64,000 nt of DNA from Psilocybe cubensis (taxonomy: Eukaryota): NCBI GenBank assembly GCA_017499595.2, contig CM039008.1:2542001-2606000 (forward strand), read 5' to 3'. Each line of letters starts with the position of its first letter. Position 1 is the first letter of the stretch. Made by a program: the position numbers and the translations under genes. This document shows positions 16,764-41,079 of the stretch, in pieces. The notes under the pieces are model-generated. The model was not told the origin of the DNA, did no database searches, and saw nothing but the letters and a program-made list of their open reading frames with translations.

Positions 16764-19700
16764 TTACTCTGTCCAAAGCGTAACAGTAGACGCAAAACCA
16801 TTAATGTTGTCCTGCTGGTGGATGACCCCAGTTTTGTTGATGCTGAGCTGGTATGTCGATGCGACAGTCGAAAGGCTACAAATGTTGATATCGGAGCTGG
16901 ATTCGATATTCGCAATCTGAGATTGACAATTCCTTGTCTTTATACAATCTTGGGAATAGTTCTACATGCATATCAGAGAGATTGGATGAAATGAGAAGTG
17001 AGGCTATTTATAGACAGCACAGAGACTGACCACGAAAAAACTGTAAAGCCCAGCGCCTAATAAAGCAGTCACAAGTCAACCACAAGCACACTTGGCGTTA
17101 TATATTTACCCTTACCAAAGATTAGAATGCGTTGGGAATCAGAGATCGTTAAAGCCCAAGAATGCGAAGAACTATCGTATGGGCGAGGATCCTTGTAATA
17201 GGGGTTGACATTAAATGGCGTTGGAGCGGGTGGTTTAGGTTGATAATACGGCTGTGTTGAGTCCAATGAGCCTTCAGCTCAAAATTAAAAGGGGTTTGGA
17301 CGCATACACTTTCGGTCTGTATCAATCCCATATAGTGATCGTGTGCACCGGCGAGATTATACTGGTAAAGAACAAAATGTTCTGCTGGTGAGAAAGAGCA
17401 CAAGCTGCGCAGTTAGTGGATGTCAAGTAGGCAAAATTGAATGCAAGCGCCTACACGCAGTCCCAACCATCCAAACCGGACCTTGGGACTCCGACAATAT
17501 TCCTCTACCAGCATATACCGTGATCTGTTTTTCTCCGGATAAGTCCAGGTCATGATCTGCCAGCCATACCCAAGTTCCCTGAAGTATATCTGTCAAAATC
17601 ACAATGCCAGCGTGATCGAATTAATCTAACCTCAAAGTAACCTGTCGCCAACGGCGTTATGTGAAGGGCAAGGAACGCAGCATAGCAAGAATCGTAGCCT
17701 CTTTCTCCAGACTTGGGACAAGTTGTCCCTTCAAGATTCGTCCCACTACCTAAAAAATCGTTATCAAAGAGATTTAATGATACGAACAAGCAAACGTACT
17801 ACCGGCGAGCCTAGATAATTGTTGATTAGGGTCATTCCAATATAAATTCAAACACCCACCTGATGTGAGTATCCCACATCCCAGCAGCAGCCTTCATACC
17901 TTCCGGTTCTCTGACGTTCCACTCAACAACGACGGCGCCTGGCGCAGGTCCAACAGTAGTGAACACAACATCCGTAATCTCTGTAACCCCTGTCGCTGGT
18001 TCCTGTCCCCGTTCCCCGACTCTGAACACAACCTGAGGGGCGTCTTGATTTTGAAAGAGTGGCCCCTTTCCGGCCAATACAGACCAGCATTCACCCACAA
18101 GCCGCGTTCCCGCAGGGATAGTCAATGTCGACGTAACAATATAAAATCCAGCATCAAGGAAGATAATTTTTTGATCTGAAAACTGGGCCAAGTGTCGCCG
18201 TTGGATTGTTTTTTCAGACTGTCGTTGGGTGGCCACGCACCTTATTGAACAGAGACTGGAGGGCCTCGGTGTCGTCGGTGATGCCGTCACCCTTCGCACC
18301 ATGGTCTCTCGCGCTAACGAAATCCGATGCATCATACTCTTCATATTGGGGATGCCCACGACTGACAATTTTTCCTTCGTCATCCAGCAAGGAAGATGCC
18401 TTCACAAGCGACGGCACTGTTCCCTTCAAGAATATCCCCTTCCCATTGCCGCTTTTGTACACATTTCCTTGCACCCACGTTTCAATAATTTTTGTTTTCT
18501 CTGCGCCAGAGGTTCCTTCGAGGACGGTGGATCCGTTAAGCACACCCACCGCAACAGGTACATCGGTAAATTTAGCATTGCTGATGACTAATGAGCCAGC
18601 AAGGCTGCCGTTGGAGGGCTGTGATGTCCTCACAAAGCACGGCGTATTGGTAACAACCGCGTCAATAATAGCCTGAGCGCCTGTTGTCTAAAATAACATT
18701 TCGAGTAAGCTTGATCATTCTTGAGTCAGTCCGACAAGAGAGGCGTATACCTGGGCCTCGGTAGTAACACCTCCGGTAGCAATATCGAACCCAACCTAAA
18801 AACACATTCACTTCCTTCATTCCATTGCGTAAGTGAGGGCAGATTATTGACCTGGCAATTATTGATTTTCAGGTCTTGATATGTCCAACCTAGCTCTAAT
18901 TGTTATAAGCAGTCCCGCGGAAGTAAATGAAGATGTACCCCAATTCCACAAGCTATAGACTCCTATTTGTGCGTTATTAATGGTAATATTTCGTACTGTG
19001 AACCTTTACGAAGCGTCAGCGGGGTCGATTTTTTTGTGGGACAAAACTGACTGTTGGTTTCCTCCCCATATCCCAAATTTGCCTGAATCATTCTAGCTCT
19101 GACCCCATGGTCTTTAAAGAGACAGTCACAGACCTCCATTGAAGACCAAATCACCCATAAATCCACCACTTACTTGAAAGTGAGCATGAAATACGGCGCA
19201 TTAGGAATAAAATCTCTGACCTTCCATTTTCCATCCAGATTCCTGGAAGAAGATGATCAAATCTCAAGATATATGCGCATTGAAACTGAATGACCTTGAT
19301 GGGCGGTATTCGGTGCAGTTGACATTTCAAAGACAATGTTGATGAGGGACGTGGCTTGGGCAACTTGCCAATGTATACCCGTTCCTTGTTGTTTTTCTGG
19401 AGGGACCCTTTTCTAAAGTTCAGTGGTTTGAATAATATGTATTCTGGTGTGACGTACTGCCTAACATCAATCACAAAGTTTCTGATGGAACGGTGACTTG
19501 AGGGAGGAAAAGTAGTTCAGTAACCTTGGTGGAGGAAAAGGGCCAACTGCAAAAACGTACAAGTTATTCGTTGCTTGAAAGTATTGTGCTCCTCCTCCGC
19601 CTGGGATATAGGGGTTTGCATCTGAACTTGTATCTAAGCGAAAGATAGAAGACTCAAGAGAAAATGAAGGCACCAATGACTGCAAAGCCGTTGAAAGATT

Positions 19701-20446
19701 TTGCAGCCAAAAGGGTCGGCGGCACTTTGGCATCACCAATAAGTTGGGTATAATAGTAGGGGATAATTGGGGCCGATATCAGGTAGATCCTACAAGTGGT
19801 ATATCGATTCGTTATCATTTTGATAGCAGAGCAAACTTGAGATACCCTTGAGGGAAATACACGACAGCCGGGGAAACGCTTGGCAGAAGTTAGGAGACAG
19901 AAACAGGCGAATAGTGGCTAACTGTTGGCACTAACGTTGAAGATGGACAAGTGCCGCCACCACATCGATTCTGCTCCCTTATGGCCCGACTGAGACAAGA
20001 TGGTCAGCTTAAGTTGAACGTTTTCTGGCCCCAGTATTTAAAGGTCGAGTTCCTAACTTGATGGCCATAGTATCATCGTGTATGCCGTCTCCGACCGCAC
20101 CATAATCCTGTAGGATTCAGACAAGGTGATTGAAACAGTTAAAATCCAAACTTACTTTGACATTTCTGAAAACTTTATATGTAGATGGATTGGCATTAAA
20201 TGGAGAGATGCCTTGATGTTTAATTTTCTCCATCCAGAATGGACTGGATGATGTTGTACTTCGTCCTTGATTTTCGTCCGACGATCTGGGCCCGGGAGAA
20301 GCGATAGACTGCCATTTTCGAAGGACAGTTTTCAGTGGCATGATTTTGTTGTGTAGGTTGCGATCTGAATTGACAAAGAGAGACGAAATATGTGAATGCA
20401 GAATCCAGATAGCCACTGTGGCAAGTACTGTGACACGTGAAGGCAT
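16764..20446 (-). CDS. Glycoside hydrolase family 55 exo-beta-1,3-glucanase (copy 1), many exons
   Basis: FWMEKIKHQG, YKVFRNVKDYGAVGDG, DANPYIPGGGGAQY, GIWMENGSGG, GAKGDGITDDT, GTASEHF, QTESPYYQP, ending GFASTVTLWTE*. Start is ATG 20446 or the in-frame ATG at 20341. Confidence 0.92.
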
Positions 20447-21823: not shown

Positions 21824-22685
21824 ATTATGTAATGGGGTATTTTAATATCAGAAGTCCGATTGAAACCCAGCTGTACAGACCAGCTGCCAGCTGGTCAGTG
21901 GAAGTCAAACGAGTTGTTGTACGTTGCTCACGTCGCGCGACGTGCACGATATGTACCCAGCTATCAAGCGCTCTCCAGACGTGGAAATTCACGGCCACGT
22001 ATGCCGAACCAGATTCCTGTCAATGCTCTCAGAGTCCGTGTCCAAAAACCCCTACATTCTCTCGGTTAGACTTCCGACTTACCTTTAGCTGCGTTCCCGA
22101 GCTCTTTGGTAAAGGTCACCGATGCGAAGAGTAATCAAATAAACTGTTTGGAGATCAGAAATGAACTGAAAACATTGTCGGCAGAATCGAGGGTGCTTGG
22201 TATGTATGGAAGATAGTGGCATAAGTGACAAGTGAGTACAGTGTCACCTCATTGACAGTAAGTATCTGAATCCTCACTAGGCCTCAAGCTCAACCTCTTT
22301 TCCATAATTACAAAGCTTCAAAGAGTCTGCAACCAGTACGATTTTAGTCATTACCGCGCCACATTCACGGGCCCCGACATTAGGCAATGCCTTCGGCACG
22401 ACGTGCAAGGCAAAACACCACCAACTATTTATATCACGGAGAGGAACACGGAAGACTGTCCGTCTCCCACACATGTGTCTACCGCATGAAAGGTTCTATA
22501 ACCGGACTTTTCTACGAGTCACCAGATGGATGTCATCAATGGCTTATCCACTGCCATTAGCCATGCTTATCATAGCCGGTTCGATCGCCATCGCCCGACA
22601 TTTACGCTCTCCCTGGTATTTAAACCTTGTTCTTCCACGATTCGCAATTTTCAACTAAGAATACCTTCAGTGACAAGTGTCCCCA

Positions 22686-25068
22686 ATGGCATCCTATTCC
22701 TCTGGAAGTACAGGTCCCCATGAAAACAGATCATCATTACGCTCAGATTCGGCACCCACCTTACCAGGCGAAGTTGTACCTGAAGATGTAAATGACGTCG
22801 AAGTAGTGATGGGATTCAAAAATAAAGGGGAAAAGGAGAGAGAGAGCAGGGAGGTGGACTCAAACGACGATGTGCTCTGGGTGAACTGGGATGGTCCTAG
22901 TGACCCACTCAATCCAAAAAAGTGTGTCACTACCAACTGATATCCAATTATTCACTAATAAATTTCATCAGTTGGTCGTACAAAAAGAAATGGGCAGCGA
23001 CTATTGTTGTCTCATCATTCACATTCATATCGCCAGTTTCCTCGTCAATGGTTGCACCTGCGACAGAACAGGTGGCTCAAAAGTTTGGTATTACCAGTAC
23101 CGTGCTCATAGCTATGACGACAAGTGTTTTCGTTTTGGGTTACGGTGAGTTTTAGAAACATCGAACTTTGCACTTTGGCTGATTTTTTATCAGCTGTCGG
23201 ACCTCTGGTTCGTATTTTAATCAGTCGAAGACAACAATTTACTGAAATTGATTGCATGGTTATAGTTTCTGGGACCTCTGAGTGAAATCTATGGTCGTTC
23301 TCGAGTTCTTCAGTGGTCTAATCTTTTCTACCTGAGTACGCCTCTCAATTCCTTCACTTTCCAAATCTCATTTTTGTTCTTCAGTTTGGAATATCGCTTG
23401 CGGCTTCGCTCAGAGTAAAAACCAACTGATAATTTTTCGCCTATTGGCTGGATTAGGCGGCAGTGCGCCACTTTCGGTGCGGTCCCCTTTGTATGCCGCA
23501 GCGTCATTCCTTACTCATGATTTATTTTTCCGCGTCATAAATAGATCGGTGGAGGCGTGCTTGGAGACATATGGCATGCTGAGGAAAGAGGAAGGGCAAT
23601 CGCGATATACTCACTGGCTCCACTCCTTGGACCTGTTATTGGGCCCGTGTGTGGTGGTTGGATAGCGGAGCGTTCAACATGGAGATGGGTGTTCTGGTCA
23701 ACAAGTATTGTGGATGTCCTTGTTCAGCTCTCGGGTTTGTTCTTCCTCCGCGAAAGTGCGTTATTTTAATGACAATCTCTTTCCCATTCGTTAACGCTAA
23801 CACATTACTGCTATAGCTTTTGCGCCATTTATACTCGAACAAAAGGCCAAGGCTATCCGTCAGGAGATGGAGCAAGGTGCTCGGGCACATCGAGAAGTGA
23901 GGACAATATTTGAGTCAGCGGAATCGCGATCGTAAGCCTCGCTGATATCGCAATGATTGTTGAATATACTCACGCTGATACTTCTAGATGGCAGCGCATA
24001 TTTGCGAAAGCATTGACTCGGCCGTTCCAGCTCTTTGCCTTCGAAACCATCGTTCAGATTTTAGGCGTATACATGGCCTTCGTGTACGGGATCTTTTATC
24101 GTATGTCCTGTACCCTGTACCCTTCGACAGAGTCGTGCTAATTGATTTTTCTGCTACAGTTTTCTTGACCACGATACCAGTCATCTTCAGGAATAACTAT
24201 CATGAGGGCCCTGGGATTGGAGGACTGCACTACATCGCACTCGGACTCGGCCTATCTGGGGCATCGCAACTGAATGCAAGGTTTATGGACCGCATATATG
24301 TTCACTTCAAGAAGAGGAACAATGGTGTGGGCGAGCCTGAATTCCGTCTTCGTGAGTTGTCATGTTAATTATATTACTGCCATCAATATTTATTTACATC
24401 TTTAATATAGCAACAACCATCCCGGGTTCCTTGATTCTTCCTTTTGGGCTGCTTTTGAGCGGTTGGGCTGCTGAGAAACAGTTACATTGGGTGGCTGTCG
24501 ACATTGTACGTCTTCCAGGATTCTTTTGCGTCGTACTGTGGCTAAGTAATATGTTCTCCTAAGGGTACTGCGTGTGTTGGTGGTGGTATGATACTCGTGT
24601 TCCAGGGCATTCAAACCTACGTTGTCGATACATTTACACTTCATGCAGCCTCTGGTGCGTCAGTTCATCTTTTAGGTGTTTCGTGACCTTATGATTTCTT
24701 GTTTTTAGCCCTGGCAGCGGTCTCAATGTTACGTTCGCTAGCCGGATTCGGATTCCCGTTGTTCGCCCCTGCCATGTATGCTAAACTTGGATACGGGAAA
24801 GGAAATACCATCCTAGCGGCTTTGGCCATTGTTTTAGGTTGCCCTGCGTAAGTTTTCTTCTTTCATCTCTAAAACGTTGTAATCTCTAAACCGTCCGTCC
24901 ATACGTTACAGGCCGCTTCTTCTTTGGAAATACGGCAAACGAATTCGCATGAGTAGCAGATATGCCTCAAAACAGACACATCCGCGATCGCCACCCATCT
25001 CAGCCGGTCCAACTCTGGAAGCTCCCCAACACGACCACAACCATAACGAAAAGAAGAGTGCTGTTTAA
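22686..25068 (+). CDS. MFS drug:H+ antiporter (DHA1 family), copy 1
   Basis: [82 protein letters not shown]; ends ...KKSAV*. Confidence 0.92.
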
Positions 25069-25946
25069 GACGGCGTATACCTGTTAGGTCTGCCTCGAGG
25101 CTTTTGCGTAATGACCTCCCATGACTATGACGAGAAGAAGACAAAGACGAACAATTTTATCCATGATTTTGCGATTACGACCATGCTTTTCCGGTTTCTT
25201 TCTTGCATTTTTCTTACTTTAGGTTGTCATAATCACTTTTAGCATTGCTTTTCGAGTCTTTCATCCCCCACGGACTTACCATGGTGTATTTCACATAGAG
25301 GCGGATGATAATTATCGCAAAAGGTGTATCTATAGTTCTTGCATGTATTTTAGTGACTTATCGAGGCAGATCAACAGCCGCCTCTAATGTTATTGTAACA
25401 GCATTATCATTAACGGCGACATGTAATTGTACAGCATACCTGTGGCGTGGAACTGTGAGGGATATTTTAATCGTCAATTCTGGGAAATATTTGGCACATG
25501 CAAACTATCGGCCGATGGCACCCTGTAGAATACAGTCAGTGTGTTGCTTTGAAGGTCATTTCGCTGCTCCGAGAGTGACTTTATCGTGTATCCGCGCACT
25601 CGAAGCCACCATTAGGTGGGCACGCGATCGGAAACGGCAACAAATTTCTTCGATTACATCGTCGTGTGGGTTACACATGCGTGCAGAATCGACTTCTGGC
25701 TGAGCCAGACTGGGTCTCACATCCACACGTTTTATTAACCGTTTATCCAGGGAATCATTGCAGTGAGTCATTTCTGATATGCTGATAAATGAGCCGACTT
25801 ATAAAAACGGGATGCAGGCTACTTAAAATCCAAACGTCGCCCGCGGTGTCTATATTTGCAGTTCAAGTTACTCAGTACGGTCCAGTAGGAATCCTCCCTT
25901 GTACTTGATTGCGACTTGGTACTAGGCCGCCAACATACTCGACAAA

Positions 25947-28369
25947 ATGCCCTCAGATGGCTGTTCCAATGCCGATACAGTATCATCAAGCAGGCCTCCT
26001 AAAACTGTTGGAACCAGGACTGTTAAAGCTGCTGACGCCCCGACAGGCGAGCACGGAAGTGCTTCCGAGAATGACGCAAAGTACCTTGAAAATGGAGATA
26101 AGGAACAGACAGAGGAGGATATGGTCATTGTTGACTGGGATGGACCCTCCGATACTTCAAACCCGAAAAAGTACGCTCCTTCACTTGGATTTGGGGCGTT
26201 TCTGACAAAGACCAAAAATTCAGTTGGCCATACCGCACGAAATGGGTGGCGACGCTCGTCGTGTCATCGTTCACCTTCATATCACCTGTCTCGTCGGCAA
26301 TGATTGCACCTGCAAGCGACCAGGTAGCCCATGACTTTGGAATAACGAACGATGTGCTTATAGCTATGACGACAAGCGTCTTCCTGCTGGGTTATGGTGA
26401 GCATTTCCTTCGATCTATTTTTAGCTTATTTTAGGGGCCAATTGATTTTGATTTTGATTTTGCTCTTCGCCTAGCTGCCGGTCCTCTAGTGAGTATTCTG
26501 TGTATTGTTGGGTGCTTCAATGCGCAAGACATAACTTATGGACTTTCCACAGTTTATCGGACCTCTAAGTGAGATTTTTGGACGCATTCGAGTCCTGCAG
26601 TCGTCCTACCTATTTTATCTAGGTAACAACATCAGTCAACTTTTCACTGGGAGATTAAACTTCTGACATGCTTTCTTCATATATCCATTTACGAAGCTTG
26701 GAACACCGGATGTGGCTTCGCAAAAAATGCAACCCAGTTGCTTCTGTTCAGATTCCTAGCTGGAGTGGGGGGAGGTGCACCTCTGGCGGTGGGTTGTTGA
26801 CAATTTGACCTTATGATTACCCCCTTCACTAATTTGCACTTCTGTTTCTAGATTGGGGGAGGGGTTCTTGGAGATATCTGGCTCTCGGAAGAGAGGGGTA
26901 AAGCAATTGCGGTATACTCACTTGCTCCCTTGCTTGGACCAGCAATAGGACCAGTTTGTGGAGGCTGGTCTGTAGGCGTACCCTATTGACTTATTTAGCT
27001 ATTCTGACGATATTTGGACTACTAGGATTGCTGAGCGATCGACATGGCGGTGGGTATTTTGGTCTACGAGCTTGGTTGATGTCATAGTACAAGTTACAGG
27101 GTTGTTCTATCTTCGAGAATGTACGTCTTTCTCTAATATGACTTTCCAATTGGTCGTTGTTAATGCAAAAATCATAGCTTATGCGCCAGTTCTACTCGAG
27201 CGCAAAGCGGATCAGATACGAAAACGCATGGATATAGAACGTGAGCCCCAGAGGCTGGTGCGGACAGTTTTCGATTCTGCTGGAGACTCACGGACGTAAG
27301 AATGTACATGCAATGAACCACTGAATATTGTCAAACTTATGTCCTCAAGGTGGAAAAATATATTCAAGAAGGCTTTAACACGACCCTTCCAGCTATTTGC
27401 CTTCGAGAACATCGTCCAGATTCTTGGAATATACATGGCATTTGTTTATGGCATATTCTACAGTACGTTGGCAGGCATTTTGATCCTATCAATCACTCAT
27501 CGTGTCTTGCATTTGCATAGTATTCCTTACCAGTGCACCTATCATTTTCAGTACCATATACAATGAAGGTCCTGGAAAAACAGGATTACATTATATCGCA
27601 TTAGGCCTAGGATTATGGCTATCGTCACAAGCAAGTGCACGCTACATTGATCGCATCTACATACACTTCAAAAACAAAAATAACGGTGTCGGAGAACCCG
27701 AATTTCGTCTTCCGACAATCATCCTTGGATCAATGCTTTTTCCTTTTGGCCTGTTGCTGAGTGGTTGGGCGGCTCAGCATAAATTACATTGGATTGTTGT
27801 TGATATCGTGCGCCAATCTCGATTATTCTAAGGAATTGTAAGTTAAATCTCAGCGAACATCTTACTAGGGCAACATGTTTGTCGGTGCAGGGTCAAACCT
27901 TGTTTTCCAAGGCGTGCAAACCTACGTTGTTGACACATTCACCTTGTATGCAGCGTCTGGTAAGCTTGTTAAGGTCCTTTCATAAACGGTAAAGTTGTAA
28001 CATCGCGTCTTTTTTAGCTCTAGCAGCCGTGAACACCCTTCGTTCATTGGCAGGTTTTGGATTCCCACTGTTTGCTCCCGCCATGTATGCGAAGTTGGGT
28101 TATGGTAAAGGAGACACGCTTTTGGCTTGTTTATCTATCGCAATTGGCTGCCCCGCGTAAGTCCGGACCATTATTTCCAAAATGATGTCGAGACTGAACA
28201 TACAAAAAGGCCTATTCTTCTGTGGTATTATGGGAAAAGGATCAGAATGGGCAGTCAGTTTGCAGCTAAACAGAAGCTTGTGGCTCACTCTCCATCATCT
28301 GGTCCCACTATGGACGACTCTACTGCAAGTCAAACTTGCCACAGTCGAGTTGAAAAGAATGAAAAATAA
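25947..28369 (+). CDS. MFS drug:H+ antiporter (DHA1 family), copy 2
   Basis: [56 protein letters not shown]; ends RVEKNEK*; exon structure matches copy 1. Confidence 0.9.
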
Positions 28370-28401
28370 AGGCCTATAACAATTATTATCATCTTACTGT
28401 A

Positions 28402-29338
28402 GGGGCATCAAGCTCCTGCGAAGATTCCATGTCGAGTTGGTGAGAAATATAATTGGTATCGTGAGCTTTAGGTGAAGGAGGTGTGATAGAAGCGGGCATT
28501 GATTGAGGATCGACCCCATTCACATATGAATTGGGAAGGAGAGTGGTTTGCAATTGAGGAGAAGTGAATTCTACCGGCGGCAGGAGCTGGGGCTGATTCT
28601 GATGCTGCGGTGAGGTATGTTGGTTGGCAGGTGGACGATAAAAAGCTTCTGGCTGGGGTGGAATCTGCGGAAGAGCATGCTGGGTCATGTCCTGCTGTGC
28701 CATAGGAGCATGATCATCTTGACTGTACGAAGTTCCGTTCTCCTGAGCCTCCATCGCGGCAAAAATTCTCGGTTTCCCTCTTAGGGGGGCGGAAGTCGTC
28801 TGGACGCTCGGAGATTTCTGCAGCATGACCGGCGTGGGTTGCTGCACGGGAACCTGGGTATTATTAAAAGGTTGCGTCATGGGCACTTGAGATTGGGACG
28901 GTGGGTAAAACCCGGGAGGGTGAACACGCACCGAACCCATATGTTGGTGCTTGCTTGGGGAAGTTTGGAAATTTGCTGGTTGCGCAGCACCGGGAGGCAG
29001 AGGCGGCGAAACTGACCGTGAATTAGACTGCTGGTGTGTCCGTGGCTTGATTTCACCGGAGTCGTAATTATTGAACATTGACGGCGTTCCATTTGCAACT
29101 GAAATTAGCTGAGGCGTGGAAAAGTCCTTGTAGGAAGAGGGTAACACTTCAGCATCCAAATAGCTATATGCGACGCCCATGTCTGGGATAGGAGGAGGTG
29201 GTAGAGGAGGACTAGGAGGCTGAGGTTTACTGATAATAGGACGTGGGATGGGGGGTTGAGGTTTCGAATCACTTTGCATATAAACACTCTGATGACATGA
29301 CGGAACGGTGGTGTTCAGAAAAAAGACCTGGTGATATC
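28402..29338 (-). repeat. 937-bp inverted duplicate of 37773-38709 (internal exon segment of the gene at 36174-41079)
   Basis: Reverse complement matches from GGGGCATCAAGC to GGTGATATC. The shared parts of three overlapping ORF translations are identical in both copies. Both spans are 937 bp. Confidence 0.97.
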
Positions 29339-29437
29339 GATTTTCGGACGTTGTAGGGTGCTTCAACTATCAAACTTGTTTTATTTCGGTGAACGATATT
29401 CGAAAATTAGTGAACGAGATCTAACAACTGTTTTCAG

Positions 29438-31087
29438 CTTGGAATTTGGGCAGTGGATTTGCACAAACTAAAGGCCAACTTATTGGATTTCGATTTATGT
29501 CTGGCATAGGAGGAAGTGCCCCGTTATCCGTGAGCCTCGTAGATAAGTTTTTCTGCCAATATAAATCCTTTTTTAGGTTGGCGGTGGAGTCCTTGGAGAT
29601 ATGTGGGCGCCTGAAGAAAGAGGGAGAGCGATTGCTATATATTCCCTAGCTCCGCTCCTCGGGCCCGTCCTAGGACCTGTTTGTGGAGGATGGTCAGTGA
29701 TTGCGTATGGGATGTGAATCAATCTGACGTTATGTGATTTAGGATTGCCGAGCGTTCGACATGGAGATGGGTGTTTTGGTCGACGAGCATTGCTGACCTT
29801 GTCATCCAAGGAATCGGACTGATATACCTACGTGAAAGTATGCATCAGTCGGCTTCGCACAGACATGAAATTAAGACATATAATTCTCAGCATTTGCCCC
29901 TTGGCTTCTCGACAGAAAGGCCGACAAGTTACGGAAGACCTTTGACCCAGAAAAATGCCAGTACAAGGAGATACGCACGGTTTATGATTTAAATAATGAC
30001 CGCTCGTACGCTGTATCCATTTTATATTTTTCAGTTAATTCAGCTGACAAACTTCAAACAGATGGAAAGTTATTTTTCGTAAAGCCCTGACTCGTCCTTT
30101 TTCCCTGTTTACCAGCGAACCTATCATACAACTTATTGGGATATACATGGCGTTTGTATACGGAATATTCTATCGTGCGTCAAGTTCCCTCTTGCGCACA
30201 CAGATAATATAACACCCAGTCAGTATTCTTGACCACGATTCCTTCCATATTTAGAGAGATCTATCACCAGACATCAGGAATAGCTGGACTGAACTACATC
30301 GCTCTGGGCATCGGTTTGACTGTAACCTCACAAATAAATGCCAGAGTGTTGGATCGCGTATACAAGCACTTTAAATCCAGGAATGGAGGTGTTGGTGAAC
30401 CTGAGTTTAGACTTCGTAAGTTTTGACCTTTTTCTGGAGTAACCAAGCGGACTCCGTCCCTAAATTAGTGTTGCAGCATCACTGTTTCCTGGTACGATAA
30501 TTCTTCCTTTTGGGCTTTTCTTGGCCGGATGGTCCGCACAGCACAGGCTCCATTGGATTGCCACGGACATTGGCATCGCGTGCGTTGGCTCAGGAATGGT
30601 CCTCGTATTCCAAGCGCTGCAGACCTATGTCATCGACTCATTCACTCTGTATGCTGCATCTGGTAGGAGCCTCTGTGATTTATCATCATTTTCCAACAGT
30701 CAATTAATTTTTACCGGCGCAGCTCTTGCGGCGGTGTCATTTCTGAGGTCATTAGCAGGATTTGGTTTCCCCCTTTTTGCTCCAGCAATGTACCGAAGAC
30801 TAGGGTACGGGAAGGGCGACACGATCTTGGCCTGTCTTGCAATCGGCTTAGGCTGTCCTGCGTGAGCACCTTGGCTTCGTTATGGCTTGTTACTCCATGC
30901 CAATTTTTGGATTTGAAATAGACCATGCCTGCTGTGGATATACGGCAAGAGAATTAGGGCGAACAGTAAATATGCTCGCAAATCGAAAAATCGTCAACAA
31001 CGTATGGCGAAAGCCAGTGCTGCCGCCGCAGAAATAATGAGAAGGCACTTTGATGGGGAGCATGAGACTTCTTCGAGACCACCCTGA
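29438..31087 (+). pseudogene. MFS DHA1 transporter copy 3, 5'-truncated (first ~5 exons missing, remainder looks intact)
   Basis: First recognisable exon (ttttcag|CT TGG AAT TTG GGC AGT GGA TTT GCA CAA) corresponds to the WN..GFAQ exon of copies 1 and 2. Later exons are in frame to TGA at 31085-31087. Upstream is only an intron remnant and the inverted duplicate. Confidence 0.8.
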
Positions 31088-31485
31088 CCCTCCGCGCGAT
31101 GAGGCTAGTACAGGTGAATGAATTTTCGATACTCATCACAGGAGTTACTGCATCGTCCAGATTAGATAAGACTCTGCGATCCATGACATCGCAAATTTGC
31201 TAGGGGTATGTCTCTAGACCAATAATAGCATTCAGTGAAGTCTCGTACATCTTTAATACAAGATTCAATCTTAGTCTTTACCGAATTTTCACACACACGT
31301 ACTGCGTCGAGACTTGCACAAATTCCGGAATATTTCGTCAAGTTTCTTGGAAGCTTCTAGAGTCGCCTGCAAGGCTGCCATATATAGTAAATGAGTCTGG
31401 GAAAATTGAGTTTGATCTTGTGAACGCGTCTGGGACGCGTGATTCGAATGATATCTAGCTCTCTTGATCCTGAACTCAACCTACC

Positions 31486-32092
31486 ATGCCCGACTCTCCG
31501 GAAACTCCTGACGCTACACACCCCCTCAATGCAGAAGAGCTTGAACCTGGGCTGCTGTACGCCGTGCTGACCTATCGGGGTGAGCTCGCATCCTGGAATT
31601 GGGCATTCTTCGTGCCCAATCCCGCAGTGTCGCCGATCGGTGCTGCTGGGACGATGTTCCATGTCGTGGACACGGATTCGGTGGGTTTATGGAAGTTTGA
31701 GGTAGAGAAGCAGGGTGTCATATCCTCTCCGCTGGTAGTAGCCATCATGCGCCTGGCTGATGTCGGATTCTTGGGAGGTTACGACGATGTCGTGGGCAAG
31801 GACAGTCTGCTGCCGATGTTCAAGACGGTGGCTATTCCGACCCAGGCTTCGACCGAATTCAGTTCCAGGACATGGTTCCTTGAAGCGATCTGCGTGTTAC
31901 ACGATTGCGGAGTCGTGCAATGCGACGATGCTTGGCTGCTAGAGAGAGAGATAAGGCGATGTGCGTTTACGGCCATGGACAAGTATTTGGAGAATAAAGG
32001 TATGGTTTATCTGAATTCACATCATTGCATGCACACAAGTGACAATTTGGCATGTAGGCTGGACCGCTTATAGAGCTGAGCACTGCTCTTAA
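31486..32092 (+). CDS. Hypothetical protein (~180 aa), 2 exons
   Basis: Long ORF 31486-32073 with globular composition; intron gtatgg...tgtag gives the end GWTAYRAEHCS*. Confidence 0.75.
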
Positions 32093-33916
32093 CCAATGTA
32101 TTCTGTATAAATTTTCGTTTTTATTGCTTTTTGGGTAGGTCTTCCTCATAGCTGTTGACGTCGAGCAGATGTTTCAATCTTCTCTCCCAGGCTTGCAGAC
32201 CATTGCGTGACTTACAGTCATTAACAAAAAACATACCCCTGCTCTGCCCTGCTTAAACCTTTGGCACATGTCGAGAAAACACGCCCTCGCAAAATGTTAT
32301 GAGCCAGCGAGACAAAGACTCAATGCATTAGATCTCAGAGGGTGGGGTATGGGGTCGCACGCGTACACGGTCGCATTTTTTTGGGTTGGTTATCAGATCA
32401 TTGCGGTTGTATATAGATCTTGGGACGATCGTTTGAAGGGTTCAAGTTTTTCGGAGAAATGTAGGATATAGTATATCAGATATATCTAATTATCGTCATT
32501 TTTTGCTGTCTTCATCCAATACGCTCAGCTTCTGATCTTTATTTGCTTACAGGAGCTTGCAAACGAATCAGAAAGCCCAACGAATCGTTACAGTTTGACA
32601 GCTAAAATCACGTGCTGAGTCCAAATTTTAATGACGACGGTGACGAACTGGTGACGTCGGTCGCGGATCATGAAGTTGGACTATTTTTAGATTTGATGAG
32701 TCGTAGAAGAACTGCTTGCAGATGAGTTTGCAAAAAAGCGGAGAGCGGATTCTCTATTGGCTGTCTGGCATGGATTTACCCAGATATCCTGAATAGATTT
32801 CCTGCTGGTAGGAATATTTATGAAATGAAATTTTCTGTATCCCTATTATTTATTGTAGAGCGCACTGACAAAGGAGTATGTGCCAATGTGTGCTTTTCAT
32901 CATTGAAAGCTGATGCGACTATCAAGAACTGTAAATACCTTTACTAACACCCGGCAGACGGTCAAAATTTTCTACAACTTGAAAGGTTCTCGGCAAACAA
33001 AAAGAATAAAATGCTGTTGGTTTTGATTGTAACCCAATTGCGACGGTTTTCGAATGGAGCAAGACGTTCCGTTCCTATGTTAACCCCGTAGATAAGATGC
33101 ATGTTAGATGCAAATGATGACATGGTCACCAGTGGGCGCTTATAGTGGCCATCAGCCTCATTGCCAGAGTGCTTCCTGAGAACAGACCGCAGTTGATCGT
33201 ATGAAAATTGATCGTGACGGGCGCTGGATACATGGACAGCAATTGGATGGATTGAGTATAAGAAAACATAGATCAGTTGGTGGAAAGAGAGTTTCTTGGA
33301 GACGGAACTCCGCAGAAACCAACACGATGCCAAAAGATCCGTTGGCTTCGCTATGTCTGTCAAAGAGGCGAAGCGTCTATGGATAAAAACTTGTAAGATG
33401 ATTGTCATCGCGCACCGTGACAGAACAAAAACGTATTGCATCATTACAATGCGTGCAACTTCTCCGCCGATGCGATTCGAAAAAGAAACGTCACCTACGA
33501 CTTGACATACCTCGGTCCAAAAAAAAATTCAGCCACTTATAACATAGATGGATTAGTGTGGGTCCACAAATAAACTGGTCCAACGTTACCATCCAAATTA
33601 AAAATGTCGATGGGCAATTCTGATCTCAAAGCATATTTGAGTGAGGCTCGAAATGCAATCCTACATGTACGGCAGGGGCACTCATGCATAGTTTTATGAA
33701 CTCCAGCGATCGACGGCCACGCTTCTAGGCGATCGAATGGTCGAAAAAGAGACTATGTCTATCGACGATCGCGAGCTTGACCTTTGTTTGATTACTACCC
33801 TTTTTCATCTGTTATCGTTATTGCCCGACCAATAGTCGGTTCTCCAGGTCAAATAACGACATCGCCTAATAGATAATCCAAATTTCCGCGTAAAGAACCC
33901 TTGGGTGGTCAGGGAA

Positions 33917-34881
33917 ATGGTTGGGATGACATCCTCAATGCTGGTGATGACCTCGTTCATCAGCGCCTCTCTTGCCAAACCAAACCCACTTGGATTGCAT
34001 AGAAGACTCGCCACACCCGCCAATACGGTGGCAATAAACGACGCGGAGAGCTACTGGTAAACATCCCCGCCCCAATTTCACAAAGGAGAAGAAAGCTGAC
34101 GAACGACTTCGAAACCGTGGTTTTCACTTTTCATTTGATCTCATAACAGCCTCGTTGTTCCCAAGTGCGTCGCGGTTTATTTTTGGGGGTTGTTATTCCT
34201 AGGCGTTTTCTTGTTGTTAACGCCACATGTTCTTTTTCGCTTGGTGCGTGCTTTTGACAGGGACGCCAACACTGATGTGGGTGATAGCGAGTATCCTGGC
34301 GGCACGACGGTGTATTGCTCCTTAGCGGGACGTTCATCGGAGTCGCAGGGTCTCCTATCAAGTAATTTTTGGACCAATGTGGAGTATACGACTGGTTTCG
34401 GGAGCGGGAAGTACGTGCAACGTGCGTCTATATAATGATTTGCAAAGACTAGGAGATTGCTGAAAATAGGAATGGGTGTTTGCAGTTACTGGGTGTATTG
34501 ACCCGTACACGCTAGACAGGATAGATCCTGATGATTCGGGAGGCCAGTATGATTCAAGCGGAGGAGCAGACGGGAATGGTAACCCGGCGGGGAGTGTGTG
34601 TGCTGGGTGAGATAGGTTTTGTTGATTTGCGAGCGATAGGAGAGTTTTGTCATATTGATTTTTTTTTGGTTCACAGATATAACCACTATGTGGAACTGCT
34701 CGAACCGGCGGGTCCTAGGGCGTGCATACGATGTTGCGAAGACCCAGACGACTGCCCAACTGACCAAGGTGAAATCTCCATCTCTCCTAATCGTCACTCC
34801 TTTTCGATTTTGACTATGTTTGTTGCAGATACACTGGGATGTCCGAATGTCATTCCGGGAAATTACTTTGATTGCGACTAG
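33917..34881 (+). CDS. Small secreted cysteine-rich protein, RTP1 (rust transferred protein)-like
   Basis: Signal-like MVGMTSSMLVMTSFISASLA, dibasic HRR, 15-nt microexon at 34150-34164, YVQLTGCID...GGQYD...CAGYNHYVELLEP...CIRCC...DC...GCPNVIPGNY; 10 Cys. Family assignment is from recalled motif similarity. Confidence 0.75.
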
Positions 34882-36173
34882 GTAGTGCCGCCCATTAACA
34901 CATACTATTAACACACTATTGCATGCTATATCGTTGACAACTATTCACCCTGTAATGCTGCATATCAGTACAAATTCGAGTTCAAAAAATACGGTTACAC
35001 GAGCCATTGTTAAGAAGCCGGCGTTTTAAACAACGAGGTGAGGTCGAGGCCTCGGAAAGGAGTTGTTGGTCAAGATGGATGCGAGCCGTAATCTGACAGG
35101 GTTATACGAAGCTCTGCAGTACAACGCAGGGCATTGACTCTCCGTCTCTGCACAAGCAATCTAGCTTTGATGACCGTGGCGACGTGTCGTGGCAGCTAAT
35201 CGCACTTGTCGTTATCTGACCACTACTTCCTTGCAAATTGCTATGAGAGCTAGAGTTATTGGTTCCAGTCTGTCGATACAAGCCAAGTCGCAAAGATGTA
35301 GGCCTAGTCGGGCGTTTAGAATTTCATAGTCTTTAAAGAGTTGGATACGACGCGCCACGAGCGTGCTGTGCAAGTGATATTATCGTCCTGGCATCTTGCC
35401 GGTCTAGAAGTGGGCAAATTACTCACCAAGGTCGCTGGCGCAGCGACAGCAAACTCCGCGGTCTCGTTATTGGCTGCATTAGAAGCTAGAATGGTCAATC
35501 TTCCAAATTTCGAAGTCGGGAATCCATAAACCGCGTTGAGTGTGTAATGTAATGGGTTTTGCAGCTGTTTCGCAGGTCCATGAAGCGCTTAATAGTAGTT
35601 GCGGTTGATCGTTAAAAGCTGAAAAGCTTGGATCGACATTTATCACAGCGCCGAGCCGCTCGCCGCACACTACTCCCGCCAGACTCCGCACCGCACCGTC
35701 TCGTCACCGCTGTCCATCTCTCTTTCAACTCCTCCCAAAGCTATATTTACGAGTGACGAAGGATTGACGAAAGGGTTTAAACGAGGTGCGTGGTACACAA
35801 ATCTGGAATGCTCCATTCAGTCATTGATATGATGGTTGTAAAAAGCCTCTCAATTTGTCGCCCGCCGCAGATTGGCCACCAATTTATAAACAAAGTTGTT
35901 GTTTTCTGTCGAAGGAAAGGCTTTCTCAGGCACAGTTTGTCTCCATTGTGCGTAAATGAACGTTTATTATCCGAGGTTGAAGGAAATCAATTGACAGCGC
36001 TGCTCGCTCCAGGGTCGTTGCTGTAACCGACCAGGACGCCTGCCTGCGGCGATTACATTGCTCATGTTGAAGCGCCTCGCGGCCGCGCCTTGACACATTG
36101 CCATCCCTCTCAGTCTTCCCCACCAACCCTTTTCTCTCATTTCGCACCCTATTCGTGACTGTATGCGACCGTA

Positions 36174-39100
36174 ATGGCCTTCCTTCGCAAGAAGAAGCAG
36201 CCAGAGACACCTACTCAGTCGCCTACCAAGGTGACTTTAGCACCCTCTACATCGCCTCCACCACTTTTCGCCCGTTTTTCAACCACAGCACAGAACAACA
36301 ATGTGAAAGAGGCCTCTCCCCGTATAGTGTCATCGCCGATGATGTTGACAAGTCAACGAAAGGACCGAGATATGCCTCAGAGGGTGACTTCAGCCAAAGG
36401 CTTTGGACATTCAACCACCTCGTTGGCGGCGAGCAACCGCGATCCAAATTTGTCACATCGAAAGGTGCAGGAGAACAATCAAAGCTCTGTTGTCCCGATC
36501 AATGGTAGCGTTCATGATTTGGGTCCAACTTCCTCCCAACAGTTGGCGAAGGCGCCAACCCGCCCCGCTTCTAAAGTTATTGTTGACAAGCCTCTTCCTC
36601 CGCCATCTTCCGCCATCATCAATGAGCACCGCGCACGGTCGCTGGACACGGTCAATCGTAGGGCATCGGCCAATAGACCACCTGGTCCTCCTCCATCGTT
36701 TCAATACCCCCAGCCTCATGTTGTCCGTCCACGCGCGTCCCTTGACATGCAGGATCTGGAAGCCAAACCACTACCTCAACCCGGATCAACCCAAGCCTCC
36801 TACCAATCTGCGCAGGGACAAGACCCTCGAGGTCCGCCCCCGTCGACTTACACATTTTCGCCGTCGGCCACAACTAGGCGAAATGCATCAATCTCAACAA
36901 CTAGCTCGAGCATAATACCTCATGCCGGCCCGCCTATCACCAGTATGAACCACAAGATGCAACCTTCATCCTTTTCTTACGGTCGGCAAGTCCCTCCTAC
37001 AACCGACCAAAAAATTGGCAGTCAAACTTTATCGCCACCTTTGGCGAAACGCGCCGTATTGGGCGAAGATTTCTCTCAGAATCGTGTCAATGGGATGGAG
37101 GGTGTTCCTTCGAAGCGTATGAGTGGGGTTGGACTACCTCAGGGTAGACCACAGGATGTACAAAGGACACCGATGTCGGACCGTGGAATCGATCTTCCTC
37201 CTGAGGCCGCCTTGTTCCAAGTAAGTAAGCTCAAACTCGGTGGTGTTTTTTTCAGTATTCCCGACTCTGTGCCTGTTATCATTGCATCACGATTCGTCAT
37301 GCTGGCCAAGTCAATGTTGGCTTTGTGCTCTGTGCGGGGCGGACGACGACGAGGTTAATTATCCACGTCCAGATTCCGCCCTCCGTGAAAATCTCGTCAT
37401 ACTTTCTTGTGATGGGGTCAAAGGTGTTAAACTCGTCCGGTCATTACACGTGTGGATGGGTGGACGTAATTCATTCTTCGCGTCCCAGGAATTCATCTAT
37501 TCCTCACCCTCTATCGCGTAAACCGTGCATCTTTTCACACATTTCGCTTCATTCTTTCTGGCTGTATGCGAAACCGCCCTCTAAAGATCGGCGATTATGA
37601 CTTGATTGCTGATTCTCGCTGTTTTGCAGGAGTATAGCGATGCAATATCTATCCCCGGCACCCCGTATGCCTCGAACGCACGCCAACTTCCCCCTGGTAG
37701 CTTAAAGACTACCGAACAGGTGTCTTCTTCGAGCATTCCGCGATCGGTTAGTTCTCTTTCTTCATCTCAGATGATATCACCAGGTCTTTTTTCTGAACAC
37801 CACCGTTCCGTCATGTCATCAGAGTGTTTATATGCAAAGTGATTCGAAACCTCAACCCCCCATCCCACGTCCTATTATCAGTAAACCTCAGCCTCCTAGT
37901 CCTCCTCTACCACCTCCTCCTATCCCAGACATGGGCGTCGCATATAGCTATTTGGATGCTGAAGTGTTACCCTCTTCCTACAAGGACTTTTCCACGCCTC
38001 AGCTAATTTCAGTTGCAAATGGAACGCCGTCAATGTTCAATAATTACGACTCCGGTGAAATCAAGCCACGGACACACCAGCAGTCTAATTCACGGTCAGT
38101 TTCGCCGCCTCTGCCTCCCGGTGCTGCGCAACCAGCAAATTTCCAAACTTCCCCAAGCAAGCACCAACATATGGGTTCGGTGCGTGTTCACCCTCCCGGG
38201 TTTTACCCACCGTCCCAATCTCAAGTGCCCATGACGCAACCTTTTAATAATACCCAGGTTCCCGTGCAGCAACCCACGCCGGTCATGCTGCAGAAATCTC
38301 CGAGCGTCCAGACGACTTCCGCCCCCCTAAGAGGGAAACCGAGAATTTTTGCCGCGATGGAGGCTCAGGAGAACGGAACTTCGTACAGTCAAGATGATCA
38401 TGCTCCTATGGCACAGCAGGACATGACCCAGCATGCTCTTCCGCAGATTCCACCCCAGCCAGAAGCTTTTTATCGTCCACCTGCCAACCAACATACCTCA
38501 CCGCAGCATCAGAATCAGCCCCAGCTCCTGCCGCCGGTAGAATTCACTTCTCCTCAATTGCAAACCACTCTCCTTCCCAATTCATATGTGAATGGGGTCG
38601 ATCCTCAATCAATGCCCGCTTCTATCACACCTCCTTCACCTAAAGCTCACGATACCAATTATATTTCTCACCAACTCGACATGGAATCTTCGCAGGAGCT
38701 TGATGCCCCGTTTATAACACCAAAATCCACTCGTTCGCTCTCGCTGCCTCGCCAGGAGGAACCTCGCCAACAACAGCTGCAGTCGCCTCAAGCCACACCA
38801 CGCGCGAAGAAGCTCAGCAAGACGCGTCACCATGTAGACAATGCTTCCATCAGCACTTTTTCTAATGGATCGAACGGGACTCTGCAGAGCTCGCCTGAGA
38901 CTGCCCGCGCGAGGAAGCGCAGCGCCTCAAAATCTCGGCCGAACACTCCTATGACGACTAGCAAGCTGCTTTCATCGGTCGATCCTGCTCTACAAGTTGA
39001 GCAAACAGATGTCGGAGATGTTGGCATCCCGCTCGATGACGACCCGTTTGCTCGAGTCGAAGGCGTTAAGATGCTTCCGAACAGCACCCAAGCGGGTGGC

Positions 39101-41079
39101 ACCAAGGAGAGGAATGCGAGCCGACACCGTAACAAAGGATCGGTGTCGGTGAAAGAAAGTTCGATTATGGATAGCAAAGGCGAGAACGCGCCTCAGGACT
39201 CCCCGCCTGAAATGGAAAACCACAGTTCGATCCCTCTAACTCCAGTATCTCCTGAAGACCTTCGCAAGGCTAAAAAAGATAAGAAAAGCAAGAAAACGAC
39301 AGAGGCACCTCCTACAGTCGCCGAAACTATTGCTGCGCTGGAAAGTCCTCCTCCTGAACCAGTCACGATGGTTCAGATCTTGTCAGATCCTCAACTCCTT
39401 TCAAACATCTTGTCTTATCTGTCTTTTTACGATTGGTGCATTTTATCATCAATATCCAAAGAGATACGCATCCTCTTTGTGCGGACTCCGACGTTAAGGG
39501 AAACTATACTAGAAACCTTTTTGAGGACCGTAGGGTATTGTCGATGGACATGGGACGATAAAGAACCTTTATCGCTTTCTCTACAGGTGCGGAACATTAT
39601 TTTTTTGCGATTTTGTTTGGCAACTTAATGAATACTAGGATTTAAATGATTACATGCGAGGAGTATCAATTCCTAACCATGAATATGCTCGGATAGCCGC
39701 CATGCATGTGCATTCGCTTTCTATACACCCCAATCATCGTGATCCGTCGCTGATCGATACTGTCCACGCCATGACCGCATGCACTCGTGCATATAGTCGT
39801 GTTTTGCTTCGTTTACGTGCTCAGGCAGAGAAAGAAGCTAGCATTTTAGCTTTAAGCAATCCACTGCCGCCACCGTCTGCCACGTCTTCAAAATCAGCTG
39901 CTGGTGGTTCCCGGGGACATACATCTCGTGTATCCAGTCGTGCGCCCTCACCAACGACTTCGACATATTCGCATCCGACTGGTGGACATCATGCGCCAAC
40001 ATATAATGCACCAAGTTCATCGCAGACGAGCCTTACTTTTCGTTCTCCATTGTTCCGACTTCGCCGTGCTCCACTATTGCGCGTCTTTGTCCCCTCTCCA
40101 GAAGGCGATTGGCTTTCGGATAAAAGCGTACTCGAATGCGAAGCAGAATGCAAACGTGCTGGGATCATGCATCTTCTGCGTTTAGGAGATGTTGTTTGGG
40201 ATGTTGCAGTCGGTGATGAAGGCAATGTAGGGAGATTAGTTTGGGATGGCAGCTATCTCATTGTAAGCATAATCTTTCAATTCTCAACAGGCTCCATACA
40301 TTATGCCATGCCACGTCAGAACTACTTTTTCTGTAGAGATTAACCCCGCTTTTTTCTTTTCAACAGGATCTGGACTATACCTACTCCCCCGTTGGAGATC
40401 TGCCAAAGTATCTTCCTACGCTAGCCTTTCCACCGTCTTATTTCCACCGTGTCATCCGCACCGGGCCAAATATTACCAACCCCATTATCCATATCGATAT
40501 TAGTCCTTGGGGCGAAGAGATTGCTATGAACCTTCAACTCCTCCAAGATCGTGTACGAACTGAAACGTGAGATTGAGCCCATCCACTTTCCACTTGATAT
40601 TATATACTCATGTGATATGGTATCACCCGAATAGTCCCCAAGGAGCCTATCACAACGTCGTCCGCTGGGTCCATAGATCTTCGTTCTCTATTAGGCCTCC
40701 TCGAGGACCAAATCGATACAACAAAGGCGCACCCTTCAACGGCCGCATACCAATACCTGACTCGAACAATCTATTTGTCGACTCTGGGTGGTACGGAACT
40801 ATAGTTGTTGAGACAGAAGGCACCAACGAAGCCCTTGCTGATCTGCAAGATCGATGTGGGCCAGGGGCGTTTCCTCCACGACCTCGCGGTGTGACTGGTC
40901 AGATTAGCCAGGCGCAGATCGAAAACAGAAAGGTTTTCCGGATCTTGAGAGAAAAAAGGTAAGCATGCTTCATGTATGGTAATAATCATATCACTGACCA
41001 CTCATATCTATCCACTTTCTACAGTCGTCCCGGCGAAATATGGATCAAAGCTGTTGGCGTGAAAGAACGCTTGCTATGA
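36174..41079 (+). CDS. Large Pro/Ser/Gln-rich protein with an F-box-like motif and a conserved-looking globular C-terminal region
   Basis: ORFs 36174-37358, 37832-39628, 39654-40343 and 40567-40962 are joined by GT-AG introns; motif QILSDPQLLSNILSYLSFYDWCILSSISKEIR; ends WIKAVGVKERLL* at 41079. Confidence 0.8.
37773..38709 (+). repeat. Donor copy of the 937-bp inverted duplication
   Basis: Reverse complement of 28402-29338; lies in frame within an intact exon, so this is the source copy. Confidence 0.95.

What the first reader, a model, noticed from the sequence alone, without database searches (positions are those of the whole stretch)
28402..29338. Apparently exact 937-bp inverted copy of a neighbouring gene's exon sits in place of the start of MFS3
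Seen: 28402-29338 is the reverse complement of 37773-38709, with no difference found in three overlapping reading frames. It begins 32 bp after the MFS2 stop and ends ~100 bp before the first surviving MFS3 exon. There is no TSD, TIR or poly(A). The expected MFS2 3' UTR, MFS3 promoter and ~5 exons (about 700 bp in MFS1) are absent, so this is a replacement of roughly similar size rather than a simple insertion. The segment between the copies is not inverted. Inference: a very recent templated insertion during break repair (template switch to a locus ~8.4 kb away), or an assembly or in-silico artefact. If real, MFS2 read-through would make RNA antisense to the 36174-41079 gene, and the repeats could invert 29339-37772.
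Basis: partly seen in the sequence, partly recalled or inferred. Interest (0 to 1): 0.8.

Follow-up and report, generated by a model that had tools for sequence, protein, structure and literature searches.

The report
Inverted DNA copy replaces transporter start
In one lineage of the mushroom Psilocybe cubensis, about 900 bases at the start of a transporter gene were recently replaced by a perfect upside-down copy of a neighbouring gene's DNA; it is a real and unusually clean fungal example of a known kind of DNA-copying accident, not a new genetic system.

Summary
Real, recent and of a known class. 28402-29338 is the exact reverse complement of 37773-38709 (937/937). In run X1, which may be the source, contigs cross both junctions and the segment has double depth. 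X5, from another study, matches letter for letter but has 897 other bases here and one donor copy. X6 and X12 are also intact. So 898 bp (MFS3 promoter, exons 1-3, 20 nt of exon 4) were replaced by 937 bp from 8.4 kb away, with 1 and 0 bp of microhomology. This is the 'Loss-invDup' two-jump of human genomes, most likely a template switch-and-return. Corrections: the right junction lies inside an MFS3 exon, and the copy includes 50 nt of intron, so the template was not spliced mRNA. Two hints, both found after the fact: lost and gained lengths nearly match, and a pre-existing 20/22-nt inverted match lies 158 bp from the break, out of register. Orientation of the middle rests on the assembly alone. 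Antisense RNA is untested. The scan had not noted this locus; it noted a 136-base bacterial case of the same class.

The parts
28402..29338 (-). Derived copy: exact inverted duplicate of 37773-38709, in place of 898 bp of ancestral DNA. 29289-29338 is donor intron; 28402-29288 is donor exon.
   Evidence: a 937-nt contig at depth 30.5 in X1, against 16.8 and 15.1 on the flanks.
37773..38709 (+). Donor segment, unchanged: last 50 nt of intron 2 and first 887 nt of exon 3 of the F-box-like gene.
   Evidence: Single copy inside long contigs of X5 and X6.
28401..28402 (.). Left junction. One base (28402) is shared by the intact allele and the donor, i.e. 1 bp of microhomology. It lies 32 bp after the MFS2 stop.
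   Evidence: X5 aligns through 28402; the X1 flank contig runs to 28431 with 0 differences.
29338..29339 (.). Right junction, blunt (0 bp microhomology), inside MFS3 exon 4, within the GPLSE|IFGR loop (MFS motif A; the motif name is recalled).
   Evidence: X1 contig from 29309 with 0 differences; 27 X12 reads with the intact exon start loose before 29339.
29339..31087 (+). MFS3 remnant: 420 codons, no stop or frameshift, lacking promoter, ATG and about 145-180 N-terminal codons (first two helices). Probable null allele (inferred).
   Evidence: 79.7% identical to the third unit of P. cyanescens model P0001, which has the N-terminus.
25947..28369 (+). MFS2, intact, 563 aa; keeps only 32 nt of native 3' flank.
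   Evidence: P. cubensis protein P0080 matches it at up to 100%.
22686..25068 (+). MFS1, intact, 565 aa; first member of the tandem trio.
   Evidence: P. cubensis P0025 ('Efflux pump vrtL') matches it at 100% in its terminal exons.
36174..41079 (+). Donor gene: 7 exons, 1,376-aa Pro/Gln-rich protein with a weak F-box match, conserved in agarics. Intact in the assembly.
   Evidence: open spliced frame; P0121 100%, P0122 66%; PF00646, E 0.0011, 19.3 bits, just under the 20.5 cut-off.
29497..29518 (+). Recipient arm of a pre-existing 22-nt inverted near-match (20/22) to the donor, 158 bp inside the retained MFS3 side. Candidate anchor for the switch.
37911..37932 (-). Donor arm of the same near-match, 138 bp inside the copied tract (its duplicate sits at 29179-29200).
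29339..37772 (.). 8,434-bp single-copy segment between the repeats. Its orientation is known only from the assembly.
   Evidence: X1 record 4 is 8,494 nt and starts at 29309, so it spans exactly this segment plus 30 nt of repeat at each end.

Best explanation
[quoted passage not shown] SHOWN: ancestral allele intact; 898 bp lost; 937 bp gained from genomic DNA 8.4 kb away in inverted orientation; donor unchanged; junctions with 1 and 0 bp of microhomology; the lost DNA not found elsewhere in the assembly. INFERRED: a nascent strand moving leftward through MFS3 stalled or broke at 29339 and was brought to the donor, possibly held by the 20/22-nt match 158 nt behind its 3' end. It copied 37773 to 38709, came off, and rejoined its own chromatid about as far along as it had synthesised (898 against 937). 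The mismatched bubble was fixed at the next replication. Result (inferred): MFS3 is a null, buffered by two intact paralogues about 66-69% identical to it; the donor gene is untouched; the locus now carries a 937-bp perfect inverted repeat.
For: X1: both junctions with 0 differences, segment depth 30.5 against 16.8 and 15.1, the contig layout of a two-copy repeat., X5: one 32,270-nt contig with 0 other letters over 25000-28402, 29339-33000 and the donor, and 897 letters between 28402 and 29339. X6 has 824 extra letters before 29339; X12 has 27 reads with the intact exon-4 start. The allele is intact in 3 of 4 runs laid. Direction: the P. cyanescens orthologue keeps the N-terminus; the intact 30-base flank has 0 matches in G000. 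DNA template: the copy includes 50 nt of an intron whose removal is supported by P. cubensis and P. cyanescens protein models. Copy gain with an unchanged donor favours copy-and-paste, the argument made for a related insertion class in PMC7025897 section 9. Length match: chance 0.012-0.026 under independent log-uniform lengths (my assumption, after the fact). Anchor: score 16, reached by 0 of 600 and 0 of 400 random window pairs and 0 of 300 shuffles; one of only 2 dispersed inverted matches of that score in 64 kb; its orientation fits priming from the MFS3 side.
Against: Junctions of 0-1 bp are what end-joining leaves; microhomology-mediated routes usually show 2-7 or 10-30 bp (PMC7025897 passage). 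The 22-nt match is 318 nt out of register with the junction, so it does not explain the switch point, and the intervening tail shows no pairing (32-51 of 158). It was found after the fact. The match near the left junction is not significant (5-30% of random pairs). Only 30 bases of the lost DNA were seen, so hidden homology there is untested. X1 may be the source sample, so the derived allele has no independent holder among the runs laid. One event cannot identify a pathway.
Confidence: 0.6

Rival explanations
1. Break repair by end-joining with fragment capture. A double-strand break in the MFS2-MFS3 region was resected by about 0.9 kb, and a free 937-bp fragment (from a broken sister chromatid or over-replicated DNA) was ligated in, inverted.
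For: Blunt and 1-bp junctions. Insertions of 0.1-1 kb from nearby breakpoints are described under breakage-replication/fusion, and 48% of PCAWG insertions map within 10 kb of another breakpoint (PMC12807874, passages).
Against: It gives no reason for the near-equal lengths or the 22-nt match. It needs a second lesion at the donor, yet the donor is unchanged in X1. The breakpoint order (+ - - +) does not fit one replicated break end (my reading).
Confidence: 0.22
2. The event was an inversion of 29339-38709 with an 898-bp loss at one breakpoint and a staggered, filled-in 937-bp overlap at the other. The assembly then mis-phased the middle, or recombination between the repeats flipped it back.
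For: Both arrangements have the same two junctions and copy numbers, and X1's contigs cannot tell them apart. PMC7025897 notes multiple solutions for such structures.
Against: The assembly has 46.6 Mb in 21 contigs, which implies reads far longer than 937 bp (inferred). It shows the donor gene whole, and a public P. cubensis model matches it across both ends of the donor segment (that model may come from the same assembly). The inverted form would break a gene conserved across agarics.
Confidence: 0.08
3. Ectopic gene conversion or homology-driven strand invasion using similarity inside the lost 898 bp.
For: Length-matched replacement with an unchanged donor is what conversion gives. Most of the lost sequence was not visible to me.
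Against: The genes are unrelated. The visible 30 bases of the intact allele share at most a 6-mer with the donor end. The paralogous MFS2 5' region finds no match at the donor. X5's 897 letters did not align to the copy at 88%.
Confidence: 0.06
4. Assembly or in-silico artefact.
For: Perfect identity. The only laid run with the junctions is flagged as a possible source, and its library is not on record.
Against: An independent contig assembly of X1 has both junctions at flank depth and the segment at twice that depth, and no intact MFS3 start among the rows shown.
Confidence: 0.03

Closest known systems
Loss-invDup local 2-jump (PCAWG, PMC7025897: 472 cases; germline, PMC12583596: n = 14)
   Same: [quoted passage not shown]
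   Different: Here it is in a basidiomycete fungus, under 1 kb per segment, resolved to the base, with a near-isogenic intact allele in another run. The lost and gained lengths differ by 4%. I did not see whether length matching is reported for the human class (supplements and extended data not read).
Four-point template-switch mutation, type 1-4-3-2 / 3-2-1-4 (Loytynoja & Goldman, PMC5453318; Walker et al., PMC7954356)
   Same: The 1-to-4 fragment is replaced by the reverse complement of a 2-to-3 fragment, creating a perfect inverted repeat.
   Different: That model is defined as short-range, within one fork. The copied length has median 12 and maximum 128 (PMC7954356) or 318 bp (10.1101/2021.11.26.470150). 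Here it is 937 bp and the donor is 8.4 kb away.
FoSTeS / MMBIR (Hastings et al. 2009; description read in PMC10766183 and PMC4689423)
   Same: A nascent 3' end moves to a distant template and replication resumes, giving a templated segment.
   Different: Junction microhomology is only 1 and 0 bp; the one significant match lies 158 bp from the junction and out of register.
ODIRA (PMC4689423, PMC10766183, PMC10766186)
   Same: Replication-linked inverted copy; the geometry here is symmetrical about an intergenic region.
   Different: ODIRA gives an inverted triplication without loss, with junctions at 5-6-bp inverted repeats 40-80 bp apart. Here there is a loss, one small duplication and no hairpin junction.
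Same-bubble fork interactions proposed for yeast segmental duplications (Payen et al. 2008, PMC2518615)
   Same: A free end is proposed to engage a sequence at the sister fork in the same replication factory.
   Different: Those are tens-of-kb duplications from one switch with 5-10 bp of microhomology, not a length-matched switch-and-return.

Membership tests
Loss-invDup local 2-jump | Two junctions, both inverted | tested here: met
   28401 joined to 38709 and 37773 joined to 29339, opposite strands.
Loss-invDup local 2-jump | A segment of copy-number loss | tested here: met
   897 letters between 28402 and 29339 in X5; intact 30-base flank 0 matches in G000.
Loss-invDup local 2-jump | A nearby segment of copy-number gain | tested here: met
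   Two copies 8,434 bp apart; depth 30.5 against 15-17 in X1, flat in X5 and X6.
Loss-invDup local 2-jump | Both junctions on one derivative chromosome | tested here: inconclusive
   So in the assembly; X1's contigs show no intact branch at either junction, but no read spanning both was available.
Four-point template switch (1-4-3-2 / 3-2-1-4) | 1-to-4 fragment replaced by the reverse complement of a 2-to-3 fragment, ancestral state known | tested here: met
   definition read.
Four-point template switch (1-4-3-2 / 3-2-1-4) | Short range, within one replication fork | tested here: not met
   937 bp copied from 8.4 kb away, against maxima of 128 and 318 bp. It works like one; it is not filed as a member.
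MMBIR / FoSTeS | Microhomology of a few bases or more at the switch points | tested here: not met
   1 bp left, 0 bp right. The nearest shared 6-mer at the right junction was not used in register.
MMBIR / FoSTeS | Dependence on replication proteins (e.g. Pol32) | not testable with these tools
   Needs mutants.
ODIRA | Inverted triplication containing an origin, no loss | tested here: not met
   The middle segment is single-copy in X1 (depth 15.1) and 898 bp are lost.
Transposon insertion | Terminal repeats, target duplication, dispersed copies | tested here: not met
   None among the repeats shown; two copies only, one being host coding DNA.
Retrocopy / cDNA insertion | Intron loss, poly(A) tail | tested here: not met
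   50 nt of intron retained and no A-tail. An unspliced RNA template is not excluded.
[quoted passage not shown]
   The two pairs of parallel breakpoints are within 20 kb, but their order needs two lesions (my reading of passages).

The most novel reading that the evidence does not exclude
The allele records a switch between the two sister forks of one replication bubble. The leftward leading strand left its template at 29339, copied the rightward fork's leading-strand template outward from 37773 to 38709, and returned after both forks had moved the same distance (898 and 937 nt). Strand polarity fits this. It predicts a replication origin near 33,556-33,575, which lies in the 4-kb intergenic region, and it predicts a genome-wide class of length-matched, origin-centred inverted replacements that could map origins in mushrooms from sequence alone. 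An older inverted gene pair in this window is centred about 1.7 kb away. Against: no origin map exists here; the midpoint shows only weak features (AT 0.60 and a 9-base A/T run, both tied with other bins); filling of a single-strand gap also explains equal lengths; and this is one event.
Probability: 0.13. Interest if true: 0.7.

Novelty: new member of a known kind. Interest (0 to 1): 0.36.

Why it matters
It is a base-resolved, spontaneous complex rearrangement in a mushroom with a practically isogenic 'before' allele available. That makes it a tidy case for how Loss-invDup events form, and a ready pair for testing whether a 937-bp perfect duplication triggers methylation, small RNAs or flipping in an agaric (repeat methylation is reported for Coprinus cinereus; PMC6191308 passage). 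Practically, this assembly carries a private knockout of a conserved transporter, so annotation and read mapping against it are misleading at this locus. It is not a new element or system. It becomes important only if length-matched events prove to be a recurrent, origin-centred class.

Tried and rejected
Assembly or planted artefact: rejected. Transposon and retrocopy: rejected. Relocation of the MFS3 5' end elsewhere in G000: no match for the intact 30-base flank; no close match for that part of the P. cyanescens orthologue among 27 of 99 candidates scored; the MFS2 5' query found only MFS1, itself and a contig-13 paralogue. Microhomology in register: none beyond 1 bp. The 9-bp match near the left junction: not above chance. 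Pairing of the 158-nt tail to the donor, direct or inverted: chance level. Origin-like composition at the midpoint: nothing distinctive. Promoter/terminator scan: bacterial consensus, not informative here. X12 loose ends at 30381 and 30421 look like paralogue reads, not an insertion (my reading). The MFS3 homologue search (best 120 of 249 hits listed) showed no full-length P. cubensis MFS3. A genome-wide count of similar events could not be made, because the genome is not available as a file. Literature searches listed no paper on this locus or on length-matched inverted replacements in fungi; the library lacks most subscription papers and I read no supplements.

Full report
OBSERVATION. Window 28402-29338 is the reverse complement of 37773-38709 at 937 of 937 positions, with no extension at either end; it is the only near-perfect long repeat in the window's self-comparison. 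The assembly G000 (46.58 Mb, 21 contigs) holds exactly these two copies. The organism is Psilocybe cubensis by protein match: the donor exon is 100% identical to P0121. An earlier scan note named the species first.

ANATOMY. Three MFS transporter genes lie in tandem on +: MFS1 (22686-25068, 565 aa), MFS2 (25947-28369, 563 aa) and an MFS3 remnant (29339-31087, 420 open codons). They match the three units of a fused P. cyanescens model one to one (86.8, 83.0 and 79.7%), so the trio is old and MFS3 once had an N-terminus. The copy starts 32 bp after the MFS2 stop. It ends inside MFS3 exon 4, not upstream of it: the frame IFGRCRVLQLSNLFY begins at 29340. The donor lies in a seven-exon gene (36174-41079) for a 1,376-aa Pro/Gln-rich protein with a weak F-box match. 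The copied tract begins 50 nt before the end of intron 37747-37822. P. cubensis and P. cyanescens protein models both join the exons across that intron, so the template was not spliced mRNA.

IS IT REAL? Thirteen runs were listed and I laid 4 of them on 25000-33000. X1, which may be the source: a 937-nt contig at depth 30.5; a left contig running to 28431 at depth 16.8 and a right contig from 29309 at depth 15.1, each 30 nt into the repeat with no difference; a third contig joins the repeat to the donor flank. That is the layout of a two-copy repeat with both new junctions and no intact branch among the rows shown (14 loose-end rows, 11 piece rows and 129 variant rows were not shown). X5, another study: one 32,270-nt contig with 0 other letters over 25000-28402, 29339-33000 and the donor, flat depth, and 897 other letters between 28402 and 29339. 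X6: 824 extra letters before 29339 and a single donor. X12 (raw reads, about 26% read): 27 reads loose before 29339 whose consensus is an intron end plus the missing 20 nt of exon 4 (FLGPLSE), and no joint at either junction. So the junctions are in 1 of 4 runs laid and the intact allele in 3 of 4. X2-X4 hold a 1.00 share of sampled words against 0.99 for X5. The intact flank is not found in G000. Conclusion: 898 bp were replaced by 937 bp, with one shared base at the left junction and none at the right, after the split from an otherwise identical haplotype.

WHAT REMAINS OPEN IN THE STRUCTURE. X1's middle contig (8,494 nt from 29309) ends in the repeat at both sides, so short reads cannot orient 29339-37772. 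The alternative form is an inversion that would break the donor gene. The assembly's contiguity argues for the form shown (inferred), but I could not check it.

MECHANISM. Shown: a copy gain from genomic DNA, an unchanged donor, a loss of similar size, nearly blunt junctions. Two hints were found after the fact. First, the lengths differ by 4%, which has a chance of 0.012-0.026 if lengths are independent and log-uniform (the prior is my choice). This suits a strand that leaves its template, synthesises elsewhere and returns at about the distance it would have covered. Second, MFS3 29497-29518 and donor 37911-37932 are a 20/22 inverted match that predates the event. None of 600 (200-bp) or 400 (300-bp) random pairs and none of 300 shuffles reached its score. 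It is one of two dispersed inverted matches of that score in the window outside the old paralogue pair, with an expected count of 0.0001-0.005 depending on the area allowed. Its orientation would hold a leftward-growing MFS3 strand on the donor template, pointing the way the copy was made. It is, however, 318 nt out of register: the tail beyond it is 158 nt, copying began 160 nt behind its end, and the tail shows no pairing. I treat it as a possible tether, not a primer. The match near the left junction is not significant. I put replicative switch-and-return at 0.60, end-joining capture of a fragment at 0.22, the inversion form at 0.08, hidden-homology conversion at 0.06 and artefact at 0.03.

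BOLDEST READING. The strand polarities are those of a leftward leading strand borrowing the template of the rightward sister fork, which would make equal lengths automatic and place an origin near 33,556-33,575. Payen et al. proposed same-bubble fork contacts for yeast duplications (PMC2518615, passages). Nothing here locates an origin, and gap filling explains equal lengths as well; probability 0.13.

CONSEQUENCES (inferred, untested). MFS3 has lost its promoter, start and first two helices, and is probably null, with two intact paralogues beside it. The donor gene is whole. MFS2 read-through would be antisense to 887 nt of donor exon, but an AATAAA overlaps the MFS2 stop and I have no RNA evidence. 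The copies show no divergence, so no repeat-induced mutation has acted yet.

COMPARISON WITH WHAT IS KNOWN. [quoted passage not shown] It works like a four-point template switch of type 1-4-3-2 or 3-2-1-4 (PMC5453318, passages) but fails the short-range criterion (PMC7954356 and 10.1101/2021.11.26.470150, passages). It lacks the junction microhomology of MMBIR and the triplication of ODIRA (PMC4689423, PMC10766183, PMC10766186, passages). Ten searches listed nothing on this locus or on length-matched inverted replacements in fungi. I read no supplements; those of PMC7025897 and PMC5453318 may bear on whether length matching is already known.

VERDICT. A real, lineage-private, very recent complex mutation; a new member of a known kind. 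Interest 0.36: the class is well described, but a base-resolved fungal case with an isogenic ancestor and two mechanistic hints is a usable test case.

Noticed in passing
window 16780-20242 (-) and 43573-46922 (+): An old inverted paralogue pair (about 70% nucleotide identity; weak PF12708 match below cut-off; probably exo-beta-1,3-glucanases, recalled and not tested) brackets the whole region. It is centred near 31.9 kb, about 1.7 kb from the midpoint of the new event.
   Followed up: partly
window 28389-29366 (-): On the minus strand the copy keeps the donor's splice acceptor (at 29289) and an open frame of 325 codons that closes just past the left junction. The first Met is at residue 30, giving a possible 296-aa Pro/Gln-rich product if antisense transcription from MFS3 exists.
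   Followed up: partly
window 27753-30151, runs X6 and X12: Patchy divergence across the MFS array: X6 has 30 differences in 813 nt of MFS3 and 17 in 390 nt at the end of MFS2, but 5 in 2,401 nt upstream. X12 shows about half of its reads with other letters at many sites, i.e. two haplotypes.
   Followed up: no
window 21878-21896 and 21929-21944: Two GC-rich palindromes (19 and 16 nt) 32 bp apart, about 750 bp upstream of MFS1; another 16-nt AT-rich palindrome at 45946-45961.
   Followed up: no
window 59360-60316 and 61874-62814: Tandem pair of terpene synthase genes, 70% identical (PF19086).
   Followed up: no
window 57471-58913 (-): 480-codon frame with a zf-RVT domain, a probable retroelement remnant beside the terpene synthases.
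   Followed up: no
window 37221-37629: The first intron of the donor gene is 409 nt, against 47-104 nt for the other introns modelled here.
   Followed up: no
protein P0001 (P. cyanescens, 1,722 aa); also P0002, P0003: Public gene models fuse the tandem MFS genes into single two- or three-unit proteins, probably an annotation error caused by short intergenic spacing.
   Followed up: partly
window 50504-52276 and 1933-3218: Tyrosinase C-terminal domain, M14 carboxypeptidase and amino-acid permease matches.
   Followed up: no
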